A stretch of DNA of 64,000 nucleotides from Gammaproteobacteria bacterium (GTDB taxonomy: Bacteria; Pseudomonadota; Gammaproteobacteria; VBWC01): NCBI GenBank assembly GCA_006218035.1, contig VBWC01000017.1, positions 1,408 through 65,407 of the forward strand, written 5' to 3'. Position numbers and translations under genes: made by a program. Below the pieces are notes generated by a model. The model was not told the DNA's origin and searched no databases. It worked only from the letters and a program-made list of their open reading frames with translations. This document shows positions 8,003 to 48,726 of the stretch, in pieces; positions within the stretch are counted from its first letter, which is position 1; every line of letters begins with the position of its first letter.

Positions 8003-8113
8003 TTAAGGAAGCTCTGATTAATCGTCTTATTGTCATTCCCGCGAAAGCGGGAATCCAGTAACGCACTGTTTTAAAAGCGCTGCCGGAATGACGACACATC
8101 AGAGGTTCCTTAA
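8003..8113. repeat. MITE/REP-like element, copy 1 (111 bp, terminal inverted repeats)
   Basis: TTAAGGAAGCTCTGAT...GTCATTCCCGCGAAAGCGGGAATCCAG...CCGGAATGACG...ATCAGAGGTTCCTTAA. The same core appears at about 19.5, 42.06 and 46.6 kb. Confidence 0.85.
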
Positions 8114-19453: not shown

Positions 19454-19622
19454 GGAATTATTGAGAATTACCAAATTACGTGACAACACATCGCGACCGT
19501 CATTCCGGGCGGAGCGTAGCGGAGACCCGGAATCCAGCGGTTGTGAATGGCACTGGATTCCCGCTTTCGCGGGAATGACGGCCATTGGGCGTGTCATGCT
19601 TATAGGTAATTCTCGATAATCC
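19454..19622. repeat. Composite MITE/REP-like element inside the gsp operon, between gspE and gspF
   Basis: Terminal inverted repeats GGAATTATTGAGAATTACC and GGTAATTCTCGATAATCC. It carries two copies of the family core: GTCATTCCGGGCGGAGCGTAGCGGAGACCCGGAATCCAG and, inverted, CTGGATTCCCGCTTTCGCGGGAATGAC. Confidence 0.8.
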
Positions 19623-36368: not shown

Positions 36369-36453
36369 TTTCGTGGCACTACTGGCGACATGTCGAACGG
36401 AAGCGCTTCGAATTCCCGCCGTGCCTAAGTTCCGACGTACGACATTAACGAAG

Positions 36454-36814
36454 TGGCGCGCCCGAGACGGTGAGGCGAACGCTGTTCGCGAAGCGCCGCT
36501 TCGCGCGAGCCGAGCGCCTTGAGGCTGTGCCGAAAGGCCGGGAATCCGAGCGGGTGTGACATAAACAAAGTGAATGGCGCACCCGAGAGGGTGAGTCGGA
36601 ACCGAATGTCCATAAGACATTCGCAGTTCGGCGAACGCCCGAAGCGCAGCGTAGGGCCGGGAATCCGAACGGGCGCAGAATGAACGAAGTGAATGGCGCG
36701 CCCGAGAGGGCAAGGCGAGTGAAGTATGCGAAGCACCGCTTCGCGCGAGCCAAGCGCCTTGAGGCTGTGCCGAAAGGCCGGGAATCCGAGCGGGCGTGAC
36801 ATAAACAAAGTGAA
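36454..36814 (-). repeat. Tandem array of three ~120-bp units, each starting with a copy of the 3'-terminal 16 nt of tRNA-Arg
   Basis: Plus-strand TGGCGCGCCCGAGAGG or a close variant occurs at 36454, 36575, 36694 and, in the tRNA itself, 36815. That gives a period of 119-121 bp. Units 1 and 3 share about 85 nt that are nearly identical. Unit 2 has a different interior. Confidence 0.9.
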
Positions 36815-36891
36815 TGGCGCGCCCGAGAGGATTCGAACCTCTGACCATCGCCTTCGGAGGGCGGTACTCTATCCAGCTGAGCTACGGGCGC
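36815..36891 (-). tRNA. tRNA-Arg (anticodon CCG)
   Basis: The reverse complement folds as a cloverleaf: GCGCCCG-TA-GCTC-AGCTGGATA-GAGT-A-CCGCC-CTCCGAA-GGCGA-TGGTC-AGAGG-TTCGAAT-CCTCT-CGGGCGC-G-CCA. The anticodon loop CU-CCG-AA gives CCG. Confidence 0.9.
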
Positions 36892-42031: not shown

Positions 42032-42096
42032 TATGGAAGCTCTGATTAATTTCTTGTCCGTCATTCCCGCGAAAGCGGGAATCCAGTGCCGCGAAT
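42032..42096. repeat. MITE/REP-like element, copy 3 (half element) abutting the greB stop codon
   Basis: TATGGAAGCTCTGATTAAT...CGTCATTCCCGCGAAAGCGGGAATCCAG. The right inverted repeat is absent. Confidence 0.8.
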
Positions 42097-42600
42097 TCAC
42101 GGCCCCGCCGTGTAGCGTATGTTGCACACGAGCAGGCACCGTTCACCCTCGGGTGTCTGCACCCGCACTTCGTCATCGACCGCCTTTTTAAACAGCGCCC
42201 TCGCCATCGGCGAGTCGATACTGATGAATCCCTGTTGGGCATCGGTCTCGTCGGCACCGACGATACGATAGGTGACCTCAGTGCCGCCTTCATCTTCCAG
42301 AGTGACCCATGCACCGAAGAAGATATGGCCCTGGTCTTTTGGCGTGTCGTGCACGACCGTGAGGTCAGGCAGCCGTTTCTGCAGGTACCGGATACGGCTG
42401 TCGATCTCGCGCAGTTCTTTTTTACGATAAATGTACTCGGCATTTTCGGAACGATCCCCTTCCGCCGCTGCCGCAGAAAGCGCCTGCACGACAGGCTGGC
42501 GGCGCTTCCACAGCGTCTTGAGCTCGTCATCCAGCACCGTGTAGCCGGCGGGCGTTATATAGGGCGATGACTTCGGTTGCGGTGGGCGATAGCGTGACAT
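42097..42600 (-). CDS. greB: Transcription elongation factor GreB
   Basis: [18 protein letters not shown]...[21 protein letters not shown] chose the start at internal Met 42600. Confidence 0.9.
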
Positions 42601-42925: not shown

Positions 42926-44695
42926 TCATCGCATTTTCTCACTGATGCTCTTTAGCTTGGGCTCCGCCTCTTCCAAGACAGCTGATAATCTCTCAAGTGA
43001 GCCGCCAAACAGGCCGCCACCTAAAGGTGGCCATGATTTATCTGATTTCCCTATTGCATTTCTTGCTTGCATTGCCAACCAGTCAACGTCACGCTCTTTA
43101 TGTTTCCAGATAAATGCGCCATAAGGCGTCCAAATATCGCTCCGTCCTAATTCCTTCTCCGCATCGACGTGAAGAAGGCACCACAGATATTCGAAATCAT
43201 CGAATGCTCTCTCATACTGTGTATCATCCGGAATTAGAATTCTGAGCGGGTCTCGAAGCCGCCTGCTCAAATAATCACTTACTGGAGTGTATTTCTGCGC
43301 CATCCCTTCGATAAGTTTTCGAGCATGGTCTCGATCCATCACATTGTGCGTATAAATACGGACAGGTGCTACCACACTTTTATCGTCGTCATGTTTTATG
43401 AAACTAGGACGTGATGCAATTTCATGAAGTACTGAGTAGTTCTCCGAGACAACGGCTGCAATCCCTGCGGCATAGACAAGTAGCAAGGCGGGATAACGCC
43501 TAATATTTGTCCACACCTGGTATCCACCCGTAGATACCGCCTTACCTATGATCAAATGGAACGCATCAAAGAAGGACCTTGCCTGACTGGGGCGAGCGAA
43601 GAAAGAACCGTTTGCGAATATATGGATTAGTTTTTCGCAACTAGCCTCTAATCGTAGCATTAAGTCGCCAACAGAATGTTTATCTGGAGCGACTCCTTCC
43701 ATATGGGAGAAGGCAGTATCAATAGCCGACCCTGCCTGCCCGGCCTCTGCTACAAGAAAATCACGTAATCGGATTCTGTATTTTTCCTCACTTAAATATC
43801 TTTTCAATGTAACAACAGCTGCCTGAGTAGTAACCGGATGTGGTCGGTCAAATTCCTCTAACGCGCCCACTTTTTCAAGGAGTGTCGGAAAGAAACCGTC
43901 AGCGTCTTTTATTTTGATAAAATCTGCGCTGTGCAGGGATATAAGTTTCTTGGCTTGCCCTCCTGGATCAGAGCGGCCTGTCCAATACATTGGGTACCGC
44001 CGTGTTTTAGACCTCTCTAAAGCTTTGCGTAGAGCCAAATCGTAATCGGCTGACCAGCCACAACAGATTAAACCATACTCATCGAAGATCTGGTCAAGTA
44101 GTCGATTCATCGGTGGCGCATATTTCGAGAGCGCTTCAAGTGAGTTCTTGATTCTGTGATCTAGATAGTCGCCATGAACCTTGATAACGGTACACTTTGA
44201 ATGAGCAAGTGGTGGCGCGCCCTTAGCAGCATCTGGCGACGCGATAACGATTGGCGCAATACCCTCGCCTTCAAGCGCGTTCTCAATCAGTCTATCAAAA
44301 TTTGTTGTTACAATAACTCGGATATGACCCGTAGCTACTAATTGGGCAATCGCCTTATGGGCAACGGTTGGAAGCTTTTTCCCTTCCTCCCTTTCTTCGT
44401 CAGATGGTTCGAAATACTGCTTTAACAGCTGCTGTTGCGCAGCTGATGTCGGAGCTATAGTTGCCAATAGCTCCGAATAATCCGGTTCCTTTTTGAACTT
44501 TTCTAAATACCATCCCGCTTCGTCACCTTCGCAATCCTCTTCATGAAGATGCGCGAGCTTAGAGACGAGATTAAGTGTAATTTCCCAGCCGGTAGGGATG
44601 CTTGCGCTACGTGAAACACCTGAACCAAGTAATAATGCGTACGTACCCTTCTGGGCGTGAACGTTAAATGAAAGAGTGAGAAGCGGATCTATCAT
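42926..44695 (-). CDS. SIR2-family (SIR2_2-type) protein with an unassigned ~310-aa C-terminal domain
   Basis: LLLGSGVSRSASIPTGWE, VIVTTNFDRLIE and VIKVHGDY motifs in the N-terminal ~270 aa. The gene is AT-rich: a hand count gives 26/60 G+C at 43801-43860, against 40/60 at 20401-20460. Confidence 0.8.
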   Translation of the reverse strand: MIDPLLTLSFNVHAQKGTYALLLGSGVSRSASIPTGWEITLNLVSKLAHLHEEDCEGDEAGWYLEKFKKEPDYSELLATIAPTSAAQQQLLKQYFEPSDEEREEGKKLPTVAHKAIAQLVATGHIRVIVTTNFDRLIENALEGEGIAPIVIASPDAAKGAPPLAHSKCTVIKVHGDYLDHRIKNSLEALSKYAPPMNRLLDQIFDEYGLICCGWSADYDLALRKALERSKTRRYPMYWTGRSDPGGQAKKLISLHSADFIKIKDADGFFPTLLEKVGALEEFDRPHPVTTQAAVVTLKRYLSEEKYRIRLRDFLVAEAGQAGSAIDTAFSHMEGVAPDKHSVGDLMLRLEASCEKLIHIFANGSFFARPSQARSFFDAFHLIIGKAVSTGGYQVWTNIRRYPALLLVYAAGIAAVVSENYSVLHEIASRPSFIKHDDDKSVVAPVRIYTHNVMDRDHARKLIEGMAQKYTPVSDYLSRRLRDPLRILIPDDTQYERAFDDFEYLWCLLHVDAEKELGRSDIWTPYGAFIWKHKERDVDWLAMQARNAIGKSDKSWPPLGGGLFGGSLERLSAVLEEAEPKLKSISEKMR

Positions 44696-44986
44696 TATTT
44701 ATCTCTATAATAAATCGTATCGTTCCACATATAGCACTTACACTAACAAAAAACAGAAGCACGTGTAACGTCTCCTCTTAGGCTCGGATGCAGCCGTTCA
44801 CCGGAGCCGAGAGTGGAAGCTTGCGCGTCTCTTGGTAACCTTTGGTGACCGAGAGGCAACGGCTGCGGTCGCCGGGAAGAAAATGCCATTAAAACAGGGA
44901 CCAGGTTCCCGCCGCTACGTGAAACGGTCCGGCCCAGGTAAGACCTTTATTTCCCCCGCACACCGGTCCTTGTCATGCGGCGTGAC

Positions 44987-45204
44987 TTATTCCACCGTCA
45001 CCGACTTGGCGAGGTTGCGTGGCTGGTCGACGTCGGTGCCCTTGAAGACGGCGACGTGGTAGGCGAGCAGTTGCAGCGGGATGGTGAAGATGATCGGCGA
45101 GATTTCGTCTTCGGTCGGCGCGACGTTCAGCACCTGCACGCCCGGGCCAGAGCGCACATCGGTCCCTGAATCGGCGAACACGATCAACTGGCCGCCGCGC
45201 GCGC
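44987..45204 (-). pseudogene. Displaced duplicate of the glmS 3' end (last 72 codons plus stop)
   Basis: 218 bp that match 46894-47111 with 7 mismatches by hand alignment. It encodes ...[64 protein letters not shown]. Confidence 0.9.
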
Positions 45205-45210
45205 ATTCTC

Positions 45211-46557
45211 CTATTTCAACGCCTCCAGCTTTTGTCTGAGATTGGCGGTCACCGTAAATGAGAACGCCCTGCCAATGGTCGTTTTTTCCAGAAACCCCAG
45301 ATCGACCAATTTGAGAAGATCGGTTCTGGCTGTGTCATAGGTGACATTATGCGAACCGCGATGACTCTGGATGGTAAAAATCGAATCAGGGCTTTTCAGT
45401 GCTCGATTTAACAAAGCGATTTGCCGATAATTTAATGATCCCTGCAGATCTTTCCTGATCAAGTGTTCTACGGTCTTTATCTCGGTCGCTTTCTTTTCAA
45501 GATACGTTAACAGGTCTTTTATAGCACTGTTTATGACCTCCAGTTGGTGGACAATAAAGTAGGTAACGTCGTTGTCGTCCGTTTCTGTGTATAAATATGC
45601 CCTTGTATATTTTACCGGCGCAGACTTCAATATCCTCGAGATCGATATAAATTCCATGGTCCAATAATCCTGTTTCAACATGGCCCAATAGAAAAGTGCC
45701 CGCGCGGTTCGCCCATTACCATCCTCGAACGGGTGATCATATGCCAGAAGAAAGTGAAGAATAATTGCCCTGATAACCGGATGAAGGAAAAAAGCCGAAT
45801 CTGTTGCATTGGCGAATTCACATATGTTCTGAAGCCTCGCGGCCAGATCTTTTGCTTTCGGTGGTACATAGATGATGGTTGCGTCTCTTTCATCACCGAC
45901 ATAGATATCATCGGACGTACGCAATCGCCCTACGGCCTTTGGATTATCCAACGTGTCGACTGTTAATATTCTATGCAGCTCAAATACCAGTTCCGGTGAG
46001 AGATCCTCGGTATAGATGTCGTTAATGAACTCCATCGCATAATAATTGTTCACTATCATTCTTTCCGATCTGTTTCGCGGCTTGCGTTTTTGCCGTAGCA
46101 TTTCCTTCGCTACTTTTCGGGTCGTTGCAGCGCCTTCAAGCTGACTCGACGTGATTGACTCCTCGATTAACGAATTAATCAGGTAGGTATCCCTGGTATT
46201 GGGATTAGCCACCTGTTCGCTGGCCTTCAATTCTCCGCCGCCATGAATGTCGATTTCGTGCAACAAGCGACGGACTACGTCAGGTTCCGCATAAACGAAG
46301 GGCTTACCCTCCTTGTCCAGGTGCGGAATTGTTCTGTAGAGGGCTCTACGTGCGAATTTTATGGCGAGCCACCATTCTGCGTGGCTCAAATCCTGAGGCG
46401 GTTGTTTTAGATGCCGTAGTTTGTCCCAATGGTAGTAGTTTCCTCCCGGATCAGGCCTGATTCCAAGAGACAAGATATTGCCCAGGCGCGTCGGCGAATC
46501 GCCCGCGGCTTTATTGAGCAGGGAATGGATGTCGGGCGCGGTAACCGGGATTTTCAT
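45211..46557 (-). CDS. Fic family protein (Fic domain with N-terminal inhibitory-helix motif and C-terminal wHTH-like region)
   Basis: [13 protein letters not shown] active-site motif. SSQLEG matches the (S/T)xxxE(G/N) inhibitory motif. The gene is AT-rich (hand count 24/60 G+C at 45601-45660). Confidence 0.85.
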
Positions 46558-46566
46558 CGATAATAC

Positions 46567-46662
46567 TAAGGAAGCTCTGATTAATCATTTTGTTGTCATT
46601 CCCGCGAAAGCGGGAATCCAGTAACTCCGCCCGGAATGACGAATTAATCAGAGCTTCCCTAA
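46567..46662. repeat. MITE/REP-like element, copy 4 (near-perfect inverted repeat)
   Basis: TAAGGAAGCTCTGATTAATC...GTCATTCCCGCGAAAGCGGGAATCCAG...CCGGAATGACGAATTAATCAGAGCTTCCCTAA. Confidence 0.9.
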
Positions 46663-46832: not shown

Positions 46833-46893
46833 CGTCTGCGTGGGTAACTTGTACAACTCCGCTGATCCGCTGGTCCGGAAACGGGCGGGAGGC

Positions 46894-48726
46894 TTATTCC
46901 ACCGTCACCGATTTGGCGAGGTTGCGTGGCTGGTCGACATCGGTGCCTTTGAAGACGGCGACGTGGTAGGCGAGCAGTTGCAGCGGGATGGTGAAGATGA
47001 TCGGTGAGATTTCGTCTTCGGTCGGCGCGACGTTCAGCACCTGCACGCCCGGGCCAGAGCGTACATCGGTCGCCGAATCGGCGAACACGATCAACTGGCC
47101 GCCGCGCGCGCGGACTTCCTGCATGTTGGATTTGAGTTTTTCGAGCAGCGCATTGTCCGGCGCGACGGTGATCACCGGCATGTCGGCGTCGACCAGCGCG
47201 AGTGGCCCGTGCTTGAGTTCACCGGCCGGGTAGGCCTCGGCGTGGATATAGGAAATTTCCTTGAGCTTCAGCGCCCCTTCCATCGCAATCGGATAATGCG
47301 CGCCGCGACCCAGAAACAGCGCGTGGTGCTTGTCGGCGAACTGCTGCGCAAGTTCGGCGATTTCCCCATCGAGTTGCAGCGCCTCGTCGATCTTGCGCGG
47401 CAGGCTTTCGAGCTGCTTGACGAGCGATGCCTCGATTTCTTCGGTAATACGATGACGCCGGCCGAGCACGATCACCAGCATCATCAGCGCCACAAGCTGC
47501 GTCGTGAATGCCTTGGTCGATGCGACGCCGATCTCCGGGCCCGCGCGCGTCATCAACACCACGTCGGACTCGCGTACCAGCGAACTCTCCGGCGCGTTGC
47601 AGATCGCCAGCGAATGGCCGATGCCGCGGCGCTTGGCGTCGCGCAGCGCGGCGAGCGTATCGGCGGTCTCGCCGGACTGCGAGATCGTTACGAACAGGCT
47701 GCGCGGCTGCAACACCGGATGCCGGTAACGGAACTCGCTGGCGACCTCGACATTGCATGGAATGCCGGCGAGCGCCTCGAACCAGTATTTGGCGACGAGG
47801 CCGGCGTGGTAGCTGGTACCGCAGGCGATGATCTGCACACGCTTGACCGCGTCAAACACTTCCGTGGCCAGCGGCCCGAACGCTCCTTCGAGCACGCGGT
47901 GACCGCTGATGCGGCCCTCAAGTGTCTGCGCGACGGCGCGCGCCTGCTCGAATATTTCCTTGGCCATGTAGTGGCGGTATTCGCCACGCTCGACCGAATC
48001 CGCCGTCAACTCGCTGAGCTTTATCGGCCGGGTGACCGCGTTGCCTGCGGCGTCATAGATGTCCAGCGTGTCCTTGGTGATGTCCGCAACGTCGCCTTCT
48101 TCGAGAAAGATAAAGCGCTGTGTCACCGGCAGCAGCGCCGCGACATCGGAGGCGATAAAGTATTCGCCAATACCGATACCGACCACCAGCGGGCTGCCGC
48201 GCCGTGTTGCGATCAGACGCCCCGGTTCCTTGGTGCTGACCACGCCCAGCGCATAGGCCCCTTCGAAATCACCGACCGAGGATTTGACGGCGTCGAGCAG
48301 CGTCGCCCCTTTGACGTGATAATCGTAAACCTGATGGGCGACAACCTCGGTATCGGTTTCGGAGGTGAATTCGTAGCCGGCCGTTTTCTGCTGCGCGCGC
48401 AGCGCCTCGTGATTTTCGATGATGCCGTTGTGCACCACGGCGACCGTATGACGGCAGATATGCGGATGCGCATTTTTTTCGGTGGGTTTGCCATGCGTCG
48501 CCCAGCGGGTATGGGCGATACCGGCGTGCCCGTGCAGTGGCTTGTGCCGGATGTTGTTTTCGAGTTCCACCACCTTGCCGACCACGCGCGCACGGGTCAG
48601 CTCGGCGGCGTCGTTCATGACGACCAGCCCGGCAGAGTCATAGCCGCGATATTCCAGCCGCTTCAGTCCTTCGATCAGGATCGGGACCAGATCGCGGGAG
48701 GCCGCGCCGCCAACAATGCCGCACAT
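46894..48726 (-). CDS. glmS: Glutamine--fructose-6-phosphate aminotransferase
   Basis: MCGIVG N-terminus, 610 aa, C-terminus ...[13 protein letters not shown]. Confidence 0.97.

What the first reader, a model, noticed from the sequence alone, without database searches (positions are those of the whole stretch)
42926..44695. Stand-alone SIR2_2-type protein with an unrecognised 310-aa C-terminal domain and no partner gene
The N-terminal ~270 aa carry the SIR2 landmarks GSGVSRSASIPTGW (NAD pocket), TTNFD (catalytic Asn) and VHGD (catalytic His). Residues ~280-589 are predicted helical. They show nothing I can assign to the SLOG, APAZ, HerA-interaction or DSR-type domains that accompany the known SIR2 defence effectors (ThsA, SIR2-APAZ/pAgo, SIR2-HerA, DSR1/2). 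No TIR, pAgo or HerA ORF is adjacent, and the flanks are non-coding. It is a candidate single-polypeptide NAD+-depleting sensor-effector with a new sensor module.
Basis: partly seen in the sequence, partly recalled or inferred. Interest (0 to 1): 0.7.

Follow-up and report, generated by a model that had tools for sequence, protein, structure and literature searches.

The report
Stand-alone SIR2 defence candidate (PDC-S65)
This gene encodes a one-protein candidate anti-phage weapon: an NAD-destroying SIR2 domain joined to a large helical domain of unknown fold. The family is already listed as an untested defence candidate (PADLOC PDC-S65), and here the helical domain is shown to be a module that also pairs with other effector domains.

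Summary
Residues 1-276 are a SIR2_2 ("SIRim") domain with no zinc module, closest to the pAgo-associated, ThsA, DSR2 and KomC NADases. Residues 277-589 fold confidently (pLDDT 94.7) into a compact all-helical domain. That domain has no Pfam, PDB-sequence, PDB-fold or viral-fold match, so it is not APAZ, SLOG or a DSR2-type tail.

The family is not new. The whole protein matches PADLOC's single-gene candidate PDC-S65 (E=1.7e-200), for which I found no experimental test.

Eighty homologous loci share no conserved partner. About 15% have type I restriction-modification genes nearby, mostly with the gene embedded in the operon.

Among the listed relatives, the C-terminal domain also occurs behind TIR, TIR-like, Ser/Thr-kinase and PilZ N-termini, and it evolves faster than the SIR2 half.

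In the window, the gene lies in a low-GC islet downstream of glmS, next to a SoFic-like Fic gene that is not a conserved partner.

Most likely it is an autonomous NAD+-depleting abortive-infection protein. This is an inference; nothing about its activity has been tested.

The parts
42926..44695 (-). Complete gene for the 589-aa SIR2 plus helical C-terminal domain protein (PADLOC PDC-S65 family)
   Evidence: ORF. PDC-S65 model PDLC05061 matches aa 1-582 to profile 12-587/592, E=1.7e-200. AF2 mean pLDDT 90.5.
43868..44695 (-). N-terminal SIR2_2/SIRim domain (aa 1-276), the putative NADase effector
   Evidence: Pfam SIR2_2 E=3.8e-11. Best PDB sequence hits are the SPARSA SIR2-APAZ chains 8jkz/8in8, E=1.4e-8, over aa 21-243 only. 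Top Foldseek hits are SPARSA, ThsA, DSR2 and KomC. There is no CxxC zinc module.
44585..44626 (-). GSGVSRSASIPTGW, the Rossmann NAD-binding loop (aa 24-37)
   Evidence: Translation. G24, S25, G26, S28, T35, G36 and W37 are invariant in 109 homologues.
44294..44308 (-). TTNFD with the catalytic Asn132
   Evidence: Translation. T131, N132, F133 and D134 are invariant in 109 of 109.
44168..44179 (-). VHGD with the catalytic His174
   Evidence: Translation. G175 and D176 are invariant. Position 174 is His in 93 and Asn in 16 of 109.
42929..43867 (-). C-terminal all-helical domain (aa 277-589), a modular domain of unknown fold and the putative sensor/regulatory module
   Evidence: AF2 of the domain alone: pLDDT 94.7, pTM 0.93. 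No PDB fold match (best E=0.29), no BFVD match, no PDB sequence-profile match and no Pfam match. Found fused to TIR, TIR-like, kinase and PilZ N-termini.
44696..44985 (-). Upstream intergenic region: sequence downstream of the orphan glmS stop, with a stem-loop plus T-run read by eye, then an AT-rich stretch before the ATG
   Evidence: Read directly. The consensus scan found no convincing promoter or terminator here, so this is a reading of the sequence only.
44986..45204 (-). Orphan copy of the last 219 nt of glmS, at native GC (63%), separating the Fic cargo from the SIR2 cargo
   Evidence: Direct repeat, 97% identical to 46893-47111. GC profile.
45211..46557 (-). Neighbouring Fic-domain gene (448 aa), SoFic-like. 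A co-resident of the islet, not a conserved partner.
   Evidence: Pfam Fic E=2.1e-17. PADLOC SoFic E=2.5e-44. No Fic neighbour in 80 homologous loci.
46894..48726 (-). Intact glmS. Its 3' end (46893-47111) is the second copy of the repeat and marks the insertion hotspot.
   Evidence: ORF, Pfam annotation in L081, repeat.
42097..42600 (-). greB, the distal flank of the islet
   Evidence: Pfam GreA_GreB N- and C-terminal domains. The same arrangement is seen on every contig encoding the identical GreB.

Best explanation
The gene encodes an autonomous single-polypeptide immune protein of the PADLOC candidate family PDC-S65. The N-terminal SIR2_2/SIRim domain is the effector. Once switched on, it hydrolyses NAD+ and arrests or kills the infected cell (abortive infection). 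The C-terminal helical domain is the regulatory or sensing module. It holds the enzyme off until it detects an infection cue, most likely a phage protein. Activation probably works through a change in oligomeric state, as in DSR2, ThsA, SIR2-HerA, SPARSA and Avs5. Shown here: family membership, an intact NAD pocket and catalytic residues, absence of the zinc module, absence of any conserved partner, a C-terminal domain that is unrecognised and modular, and a mobile, defence-type genomic context. Inferred: NADase activity, anti-phage function, the sensing role of the C-terminal domain, and oligomerisation.
For: (1) Full-length match to PDC-S65 (E=1.7e-200). PDC systems are candidates predicted by 'guilt-by-embedding' within R-M type I, BREX, DISARM and Hma. 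(2) The SIR2 domain is closest to proven defence NADases: SPARSA SIR2-APAZ, ThsA, DSR2 and KomC. N132 and the GSG loop are invariant and the window's protein has H174. There is no CxxC zinc module, and CobB deacylase models score 12-18 bits against cut-offs of 221-320. SIR2_2 proteins lack the zinc module needed for deacetylation, and their activation often involves multimerisation (PMC12700824). The SIRim clade is 12-fold enriched next to defence systems (10.1101/2024.09.18.613514). (3) No conserved neighbour in 80 loci. The commonest are HsdS (12 of 80), HsdM (10) and HsdR (9), mostly with the SIR2 gene inside the operon and in at least six loci starting at the hsdS stop. (4) The same C-terminal domain follows TIR_2, CAP12-type TIR-like (weak hits), PD-T4-6-like kinase or PilZ N-termini in 14 of 145 listed representatives. 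Two such genes are intact and internal to their contigs. (5) The C-terminal half diverges faster than the SIR2 half (median identity 32% against 59%). (6) Mobility: low GC (45-48% against ~62%) in an islet at glmS next to SoFic; the 74%-identical homologue lies beside an integrase and primase, and the 62% one beside type I R-M genes and IS1595; 55 plasmids carry relatives.
Against: There is no experimental evidence for this family: no paper in the library names PDC-S65. No promoter or terminator was detected by the consensus scans. The catalytic His is Asn in 16 of 109 homologues, which is odd for a strictly NADase-dependent family. PilZ, one of the alternative N-termini, is a signalling domain and not a killing effector, and that variant sits among signalling genes. 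This leaves room for a non-immune role for the C-terminal domain. The C-terminal domain gives no clue to its ligand: no fold match, and a near-neutral pI. Only the best 150 of 1,976 C-terminal-domain hits were inspected.
Confidence: 0.6

Rival explanations
1. The protein is a PrrC-like guard of type I restriction-modification. The C-terminal domain docks onto Hsd subunits, and the NADase fires when a phage anti-restriction factor disables the R-M complex.
For: In at least eight of 80 loci the gene sits between hsdS and hsdR, the position PrrC occupies in EcoprrI (that position is recalled from memory). In at least six loci its start coincides with the hsdS stop. The PDC family was defined by such embedding.
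Against: About 85% of loci, including the window's, have no R-M gene within 7 kb. Payne et al. describe PrrC as almost exclusively embedded in type I R-M, whereas this family is mostly solitary. No interaction has been tested.
Confidence: 0.12
2. The protein has a non-immune role, as a regulatory sirtuin-like enzyme (deacylase, ADP-ribosyltransferase or NAD-sensing signalling protein) with the helical domain selecting its cellular target.
For: PilZ-fused relatives lie among signalling genes (PilZ protein, hybrid histidine kinase). Recurrent H174N variants suggest that hydrolysis is not always needed. The window's copy has housekeeping neighbours such as glmS and greB.
Against: The protein has no zinc module and fails the CobB models. 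Its nearest structural relatives are all defence NADases. Its distribution is patchy and mobile, with low GC. It is enriched in type I R-M operons. The other alternative N-termini (TIR, PD-T4-6-type kinase) are defence-type effectors.
Confidence: 0.12
3. The C-terminal helical domain is itself the active or scaffold part, for example a filament former or an unknown enzyme. The variable N-terminal domains would then be regulators or co-effectors, not effectors controlled by a sensor.
For: The C-terminal domain is the constant element across at least five architectures. It carries conserved polar residues and motifs, including an invariant Glu in FDRFEY and the motifs TPLSDHL and WPPL. PilZ is a ligand-binding domain and not a killing effector.
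Against: The C-terminal half is the faster-evolving half, which is more typical of a sensor than of a catalytic core. No enzyme fold or motif was recognised. SIR2, TIR and kinase domains are established effectors in other systems.
Confidence: 0.1
4. The protein is an orphan SIR2-APAZ-type partner of a short prokaryotic Argonaute encoded elsewhere in the genome.
For: The SIR2 domain is closest to SPARSA SIR2-APAZ, and the two proteins are nearly the same length (589 against 584-587 aa).
Against: PADLOC's pAgo-associated SIR2 models align only as far as aa 243-271. The C-terminal domain alone finds no significant PDB match (none at E<=0.001, and no SPARSA chain among the 50 hits listed), although SPARSA structures are in the library. 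It is all-helical. PIWI genes occur in only 3 of 80 loci, never adjacent, and one of them directly follows another gene that may be its own partner.
Confidence: 0.02

Closest known systems
PADLOC PDC-S65, a single-gene 'phage defence candidate' (Payne et al., bioRxiv 10.1101/2024.01.29.577857)
   Same: End-to-end HMM match (E=1.7e-200), the same ~590-aa two-domain architecture, and the same single-gene organisation.
   Different: Nothing structural differs. The window's copy is solitary at glmS and not embedded in an R-M system. The family itself has no published functional test that I could find.
DSR2 and DSR1 (defence-associated sirtuins; Garb et al. 2022; DSR2 structures 8wy8, 8k9a and others)
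   Same: A single polypeptide with an N-terminal SIR2 NADase and a C-terminal helical region. In DSR2 that region binds a phage protein (the tail tube) to switch on NAD+ depletion. This is the best working analogy for the mechanism.
   Different: DSR2 is about 1,000 aa with a HEAT-like tail. No PADLOC DSR model hits the query. The C-terminal domain alone does not retrieve DSR2 from PDB. The full-length alignments to DSR2 beyond the SIR2 domain have rmsd of 16-20 A.
SIR2-APAZ of SPARSA short-pAgo systems (8in8, 8jkz, 8y80)
   Same: The closest SIR2 domain by sequence and by fold, a similar total length, and a parallel logic of SIR2 or TIR effectors swapped onto a constant C-terminal module.
   Different: The C-terminal module is not APAZ by sequence or fold, and no pAgo gene is linked.
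ThsA of Thoeris (6lhx, 7uxt, 8bto)
   Same: A SIR2_2 NADase effector fused to a C-terminal regulatory domain and activated through oligomer or filament formation.
   Different: ThsA carries a SLOG or Macro domain that binds a ThsB-made signal. Here the C-terminal domain is all-helical and there is no ThsB/TIR neighbour.
PrrC anticodon nuclease embedded in the EcoprrI type I R-M operon
   Same: A subset of PDC-S65 genes occupies the same hsdS-X-hsdR slot, with overlapping start and stop codons.
   Different: The effector is different (NADase against RNase), there is no sequence relationship, and most family members, including this one, are not linked to R-M.

Membership tests
PADLOC PDC-S65 (candidate single-gene defence system) | Full-length match to the family HMM | tested here: met
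   PDLC05061 E=1.7e-200, aa 1-582 against profile 12-587/592. PDLC05060 E=1.7e-123.
PADLOC PDC-S65 (candidate single-gene defence system) | Single gene with no obligatory partner | tested here: met
   No neighbour cluster occurs in more than 12 of 80 loci. The PADLOC scan of 150 immediate neighbours shows only type I R-M components in 8-9 of them.
PADLOC PDC-S65 (candidate single-gene defence system) | Found embedded in R-M type I, BREX or DISARM operons (the basis of the prediction) | tested here: met
   True for the family: HsdS in 12 of 80 loci, HsdM in 10, HsdR in 9, mostly as embedded arrangements. The window's own copy is not embedded.
PADLOC PDC-S65 (candidate single-gene defence system) | Protects against phage | not testable with these tools
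   No experimental report was found.
SIR2_2 / SIRim NADase domain | Pfam PF13289 above the gathering score | tested here: met
   43.7 bits against a cut-off of 24.5.
SIR2_2 / SIRim NADase domain | Rossmann GxGxS loop plus catalytic Asn and His | tested here: met
   GSGVS, TTNFD and VHGD are present. N132 is invariant. H174 is His in 93 of 109 relatives and Asn in the rest.
SIR2_2 / SIRim NADase domain | Lacks the Cys4 zinc module of canonical sirtuins | tested here: met
   No CxxC motif; only six scattered Cys residues. The criterion comes from PMC12700824.
SIR2_2 / SIRim NADase domain | NAD+ glycohydrolase activity | not testable with these tools
   Needs biochemistry.
SIR2-APAZ / SPARSA | C-terminal APAZ domain | tested here: not met
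   The Aga_SIR2-PNTD models align only to aa 9-271. Foldseek with the C-terminal domain found nothing at E<=0.001 in a PDB library that contains SPARSA. The profile found nothing against PDB sequences.
SIR2-APAZ / SPARSA | Adjacent short pAgo (MID-PIWI) gene | tested here: not met
   None in the window. PIWI genes occur in 3 of 80 loci, none adjacent.
Thoeris ThsA | SLOG or Macro C-terminal domain and a ThsB (TIR) neighbour | tested here: not met
   ThsA models hit only the SIR2 core, aa 108-177. The C-terminal domain is all-helical. No TIR neighbour cluster was found.
DSR1 / DSR2 | Match to the DSR models and a long (~700-aa) C-terminal tail that binds phage protein | tested here: not met
   No DSR model in the PADLOC hits at E<0.1. 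The C-terminal domain does not retrieve DSR2 chains. The protein is 589 aa against ~1,000.
SIR2-HerA (Nezha) | Adjacent HerA ATPase gene | tested here: not met
   No such ORF in the window and no recurrent ATPase neighbour.
CobB-type protein deacylase | NCBIfam equivalog score and a zinc-binding module | tested here: not met
   12-18 bits against cut-offs of 221-320. No CxxC motif.

The most novel reading that the evidence does not exclude
The 313-aa C-terminal helical domain is a previously undescribed, widespread immune sensor or switch module (about 2,000 clusters at 50% identity). It can drive at least four different output domains (SIR2, TIR, TIR-like, Ser/Thr kinase) and defines a new, mechanistically distinct family of single-protein defence systems. 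Its trigger and fold would resemble no characterised system. The recurrent His-to-Asn toggle at the catalytic base could reflect a second mode of action or regulated attenuation.
Probability: 0.4. Interest if true: 0.65.

Novelty: new member of a known kind. Interest (0 to 1): 0.42.

Why it matters
SIR2 NADases are a recurring immune effector from bacteria to humans. What differs between systems, and what decides which invaders are detected, is the sensor. This family is large, spans many bacterial phyla and archaea, works as one gene, and carries a confidently folded sensor-like domain with no structural relative in PDB. Identifying its trigger would add a new recognition principle. Because the same domain is wired to SIR2, TIR, kinase and PilZ modules, it is also a natural test of how one switch controls different outputs. 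For this particular window the practical result is more modest: the gene is a member of an already catalogued but untested candidate family.

Tried and rejected
1. APAZ or orphan pAgo partner. Rejected by PADLOC alignment limits, by Foldseek and the PDB sequence profile of the C-terminal domain, and by the lack of linked PIWI genes.

2. Fic as a partner. Rejected: none of the 80 loci has a Fic neighbour, and an orphan glmS fragment at native GC separates the two genes.

3. Independent contexts for the identical protein (L082, L083). These are the same locus at 100% identity.

4. Presence/absence polymorphism of the islet, tested through exact-GreB contigs. Every contig carries the same arrangement, so this was uninformative.

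5. Promoter and terminator scans. Nothing convincing was found.

6. Literature searches for PDC-S65, SIR2_2/PF13289 and single-protein SIR2 systems. No characterisation of this family was found. The supplements held for the Payne preprint do not mention S65.

7. The ~330-aa 'C-domain-only' hits. They start inside the last strand and helix of the SIR2 domain, often with non-ATG starts, so I read them as truncated gene calls and not as a separate architecture.

8. The P0211-type TIR fusion as a widespread family. Only two full-length clusters of that TIR subtype exist, so the alternative architectures are real but minor.

9. Host identification through cluster names. No names were available.

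10. Nucleic-acid-binding or membrane readings of the C-terminal domain. Its pI is about 6.4, and the most hydrophobic stretch (aa 398-416, KD 1.49) is a high-confidence helix within the bundle.

11. Phage carriage. Phage genomes hold only weak matches to the SIR2 domain.
Full report
**Observation**

The ORF at 42926..44695 (minus strand) is a 589-aa ATG-initiated reading frame. Pfam recognises only SIR2_2 (PF13289), at aa 127-247 (43.7 bits against a cut-off of 24.5). Nothing in Pfam or NCBIfam covers the C-terminal half.

AlphaFold2 with a 109-sequence alignment gives a confident model (mean pLDDT 90.5). It shows an alpha/beta Rossmann-type N-terminal domain and an all-helical C-terminal half. 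Modelled alone, residues 277-589 form a compact unit (pLDDT 94.7, pTM 0.93). The lower pTM of the full-length model (0.62) suggests that the relative orientation of the two domains is not fixed.

**What the N-terminal domain is**

By sequence, the closest solved chains are the SIR2-APAZ subunits of SPARSA (8jkz, 8in8; E=1.4e-8), followed by KomC and ThsA. All of these align only to aa ~20-243. Foldseek with the full-length model returns SPARSA SIR2-APAZ (about 320 aligned columns, the SIR2 part), ThsA, DSR2 and KomC.

The NAD-loop residues (G24, S25, G26, S28, T35, G36, W37) and T131, N132, F133, D134 are invariant in 109 homologues. The protein has no CxxC pair and only six scattered cysteines. 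CobB-type deacylase models score 12-18 bits against cut-offs of 221-320. This places it in the SIR2_2/"SIRim" subfamily, which lacks the zinc module needed for deacetylation. Characterised bacterial members of that subfamily are NADases, usually activated by a change in oligomeric state (PMC12700824; 10.1101/2024.09.18.613514). An ordinary deacetylase is therefore unlikely.

**What the C-terminal domain is not**

PADLOC's pAgo-associated SIR2 models align no further than aa 243-271. Foldseek with the C-terminal model alone finds nothing at E<=0.001 in PDB. The best hit has E=0.29, TM scores are at most 0.27, and the hits are generic armadillo-like or designed helical repeats. The SPARSA, ThsA and DSR2 structures that the full-length search retrieved are in that same library.

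BFVD gives nothing. A 61-sequence profile of the domain finds nothing among PDB sequences (best E=0.18). No Pfam family recurs among the 61 members. The domain is therefore not APAZ, SLOG, Macro or a DSR2-type tail. Within the libraries available here it has no recognisable relative. AFDB could not be searched.

**The family is already catalogued**

The whole protein, C-terminal domain included, matches PADLOC model PDLC05061, 'PDC-S65', end to end (E=1.7e-200). PDC systems are 'phage defence candidates' predicted by 'guilt-by-embedding', meaning the genes are found nested inside type I R-M, BREX, DISARM or Hma operons. They were added to PADLOC without individual validation (bioRxiv 10.1101/2024.01.29.577857; PMC12988326). 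I found no paper naming PDC-S65 and no functional study of this architecture.

The family is large. More than 3,896 clusters at 90% identity match at E<=1e-5, and at least 558 species genomes across many bacterial phyla and several archaea carry it.

**Partner genes**

I called ORFs within 7 kb of the gene in 80 homologous loci and clustered them. No neighbour family is present in more than 12 loci. The three commonest are HsdS (12), HsdM (10) and HsdR (9). In most of these loci the SIR2 gene sits inside the type I operon (hsdM-hsdS-SIR2-...-hsdR). In at least six loci its start coincides with the hsdS stop. A PADLOC scan of 150 immediate neighbours agrees: type I methyltransferase in 9 and specificity subunit in 8.

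True PIWI proteins occur in three loci and are never adjacent. One of them directly follows a separate 280-aa ORF that may be its own partner. No Fic neighbour occurs anywhere. The protein is therefore genuinely stand-alone, and its context is defence-type.

**New evidence on the C-terminal domain**

A phmmer search with the C-terminal domain alone against 1.84 billion representatives gave 1,976 hits at E<=1e-3 and 1,173 at E<=1e-10. I classified the 145 listed proteins not already in hand:

- 90 have a SIR2 N-terminus.
- 41 are N-terminally truncated calls that begin inside the end of the SIR2 domain.
- 14 have 60 or more residues of N-terminus with no SIR2 similarity.

Among those 14, Pfam and PADLOC identify several types:

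- TIR_2: P0138, P0173, P0211 (E=1e-18 to 1e-22).
- A CAP12/Pycsar-type TIR-like domain, with weak hits: P0142 and P0251. P0205 and P0236 share the same sequence type.
- Protein kinase of the PD-T4-6/mad6 type: P0153, P0174, P0222.
- PilZ: P0163, with P0277 and P0305 found.

All of these match the PDC-S65 HMM only over profile positions ~290-590. The TIR-fused P0211 and the PilZ-fused P0305 are intact genes internal to their contigs. A follow-up search showed that the alternative architectures are minor: only two full-length clusters of the P0211 TIR subtype exist.

The C-terminal half also diverges faster than the SIR2 half (median identity to the query 32% against 59%). A constant, fast-evolving C-terminal module with interchangeable NAD-consuming or kinase N-termini is the pattern seen for sensor/effector immune proteins. 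It parallels the SIR2/TIR/nuclease swapping on APAZ (that comparison is recalled, not tested here).

**Local context in the window**

The gene has 45-48% GC in a genome of about 62%. It lies downstream of atp-glmU-glmS. The order on the minus strand is:

- intact glmS (46894-48726);
- a low-GC segment with a 448-aa Fic gene (45211-46557; PADLOC SoFic E=2.5e-44);
- an orphan, native-GC copy of the last 219 nt of glmS (44986-45204, 97% identical to 46893-47111, beginning exactly at the stop codon);
- 290 nt of intergenic sequence;
- the SIR2 gene;
- greB.

Two foreign cargo segments have therefore accumulated at the glmS 3' end. No integrase or transposase is present. No other defence genes were found among the large ORFs I sampled in the window.

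The closest homologues sit elsewhere. The 74%-identical protein lies beside a tyrosine integrase and a primase/AAA_25 gene. The 62% one lies beside a type I methylase and S subunit, IS1595 transposases, a Cas1-like ORF and a NUDIX gene. Fifty-five plasmids carry relatives. Phage genomes hold only weak SIR2-domain matches. The gene is thus mobile cargo.

**Mechanism**

The best-supported reading (confidence about 0.6) is an autonomous abortive-infection protein. The helical domain keeps the SIR2 NADase off until it detects an infection cue. The enzyme then depletes NAD+, probably after oligomerisation. This is analogous to DSR2, which is a working analogy and not a homology, because the DSR membership tests failed.

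Shown here:

- family membership;
- an intact active site and no zinc module;
- no conserved partner;
- a modular C-terminal domain of unknown fold;
- a mobile, defence-type context.

Inferred:

- NADase activity;
- protection against phage;
- a sensing role for the C-terminal domain;
- oligomerisation.

Rivals:

- A PrrC-like guard of type I R-M (0.12). This is attractive for the embedded copies, but 85% of copies, including this one, are solitary.
- A non-immune regulatory role (0.12). The PilZ-fused relatives and the His-to-Asn variants point this way.
- The C-terminal domain as the active or scaffold part (0.10).
- An orphan pAgo partner (0.02). This is effectively refuted.

**Unexplained**

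The catalytic His is Asn in 16 of 109 homologues. These variants are not a clade: an Asn protein and a His protein can be 87% identical. No other column co-varies, and the replacement is always Asn. In KomC, the H146N substitution was deposited as a point mutant, which I take to be catalytically inactive (9xvc). The window's protein has His.

**Verdict**

This gene is a member of PADLOC's untested candidate family PDC-S65. What this analysis adds is threefold. It excludes APAZ, SLOG and DSR-type identities for the C-terminal domain by explicit test. It shows that no partner gene is conserved. And it finds that the C-terminal domain is a swappable module used with several effector types. Interest is moderate.

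Noticed in passing
window 44986-45204 and 46893-47111: A 219-nt direct repeat (97% identical) of the glmS 3' end, starting exactly at the stop codon. It brackets the Fic gene, so glmS is intact and an orphan 3' remnant at native GC lies 1.9 kb downstream. This suggests an element was inserted into the glmS 3' end carrying its own replacement end, but no integrase or transposase remains.
   Followed up: partly
window 45211-46557 (-): A 448-aa Fic-domain protein with an intact HPFEDGNGR motif. It matches PADLOC SoFic (E=2.5e-44) but falls far below NCBIfam's SoFic equivalog cut-off (53 bits against 550). It is a second defence-type cargo gene in the same low-GC islet.
   Followed up: partly
window 42032-42087, 46567-46622, 46642-46662; also ~8003-8082 and ~19498-19579: REP-like repeats containing the palindrome CATTCCCGCGAAAGCGGGAATCC. 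They are scattered in intergenic regions, and copies flank the greB-to-Fic segment in direct and inverted orientation.
   Followed up: no
alignment A1, column of H174 (window 44174-44176): The catalytic His of the SIR2 domain is replaced by Asn, and only by Asn, in 16 of 109 full-length homologues. These do not form a clade, and no compensating change is seen elsewhere.
   Followed up: partly
L085 7199-8008 and 10236-10709: In the locus of the 62%-identical homologue, a 269-aa Cas1-family ORF overlaps the start of the SIR2 gene and a NUDIX hydrolase follows it. The locus lies next to type I R-M genes and two IS1595 transposases. A NUDIX gene beside an NADase could process ADP-ribose.
   Followed up: no
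L088 7001-8464: A PilZ-fused version of the same C-terminal domain (P0305, 487 aa) sits between another PilZ protein and a CHASE hybrid histidine kinase. This is a signalling context, not a defence context.
   Followed up: partly
L084 10080-14321: The 74%-identical homologue lies next to an AAA_25 protein, a DnaG-type zinc-ribbon primase and a tyrosine integrase, beside queA-tgt. It looks like a small integrative, satellite-like element carrying the SIR2 gene as cargo.
   Followed up: no
window ~36444-36590 and ~36680-36830, next to tRNA-Arg(CCG) at 36815-36891: Two copies of a ~150-nt sequence (88% identity in cross-matches to L081), about 240 nt apart, abutting or overlapping the tRNA-Arg gene. 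This may be a partial tRNA duplication or an attachment-site scar.
   Followed up: no
L070 11218-14784: A 1,188-aa ORF in my own crude ORF call, near a PDC-S65 homologue. It appears to combine an AlbA_2/Schlafen-like N-terminal region with a C-terminal PIWI domain. This was read by eye from the sequence.
   Followed up: no
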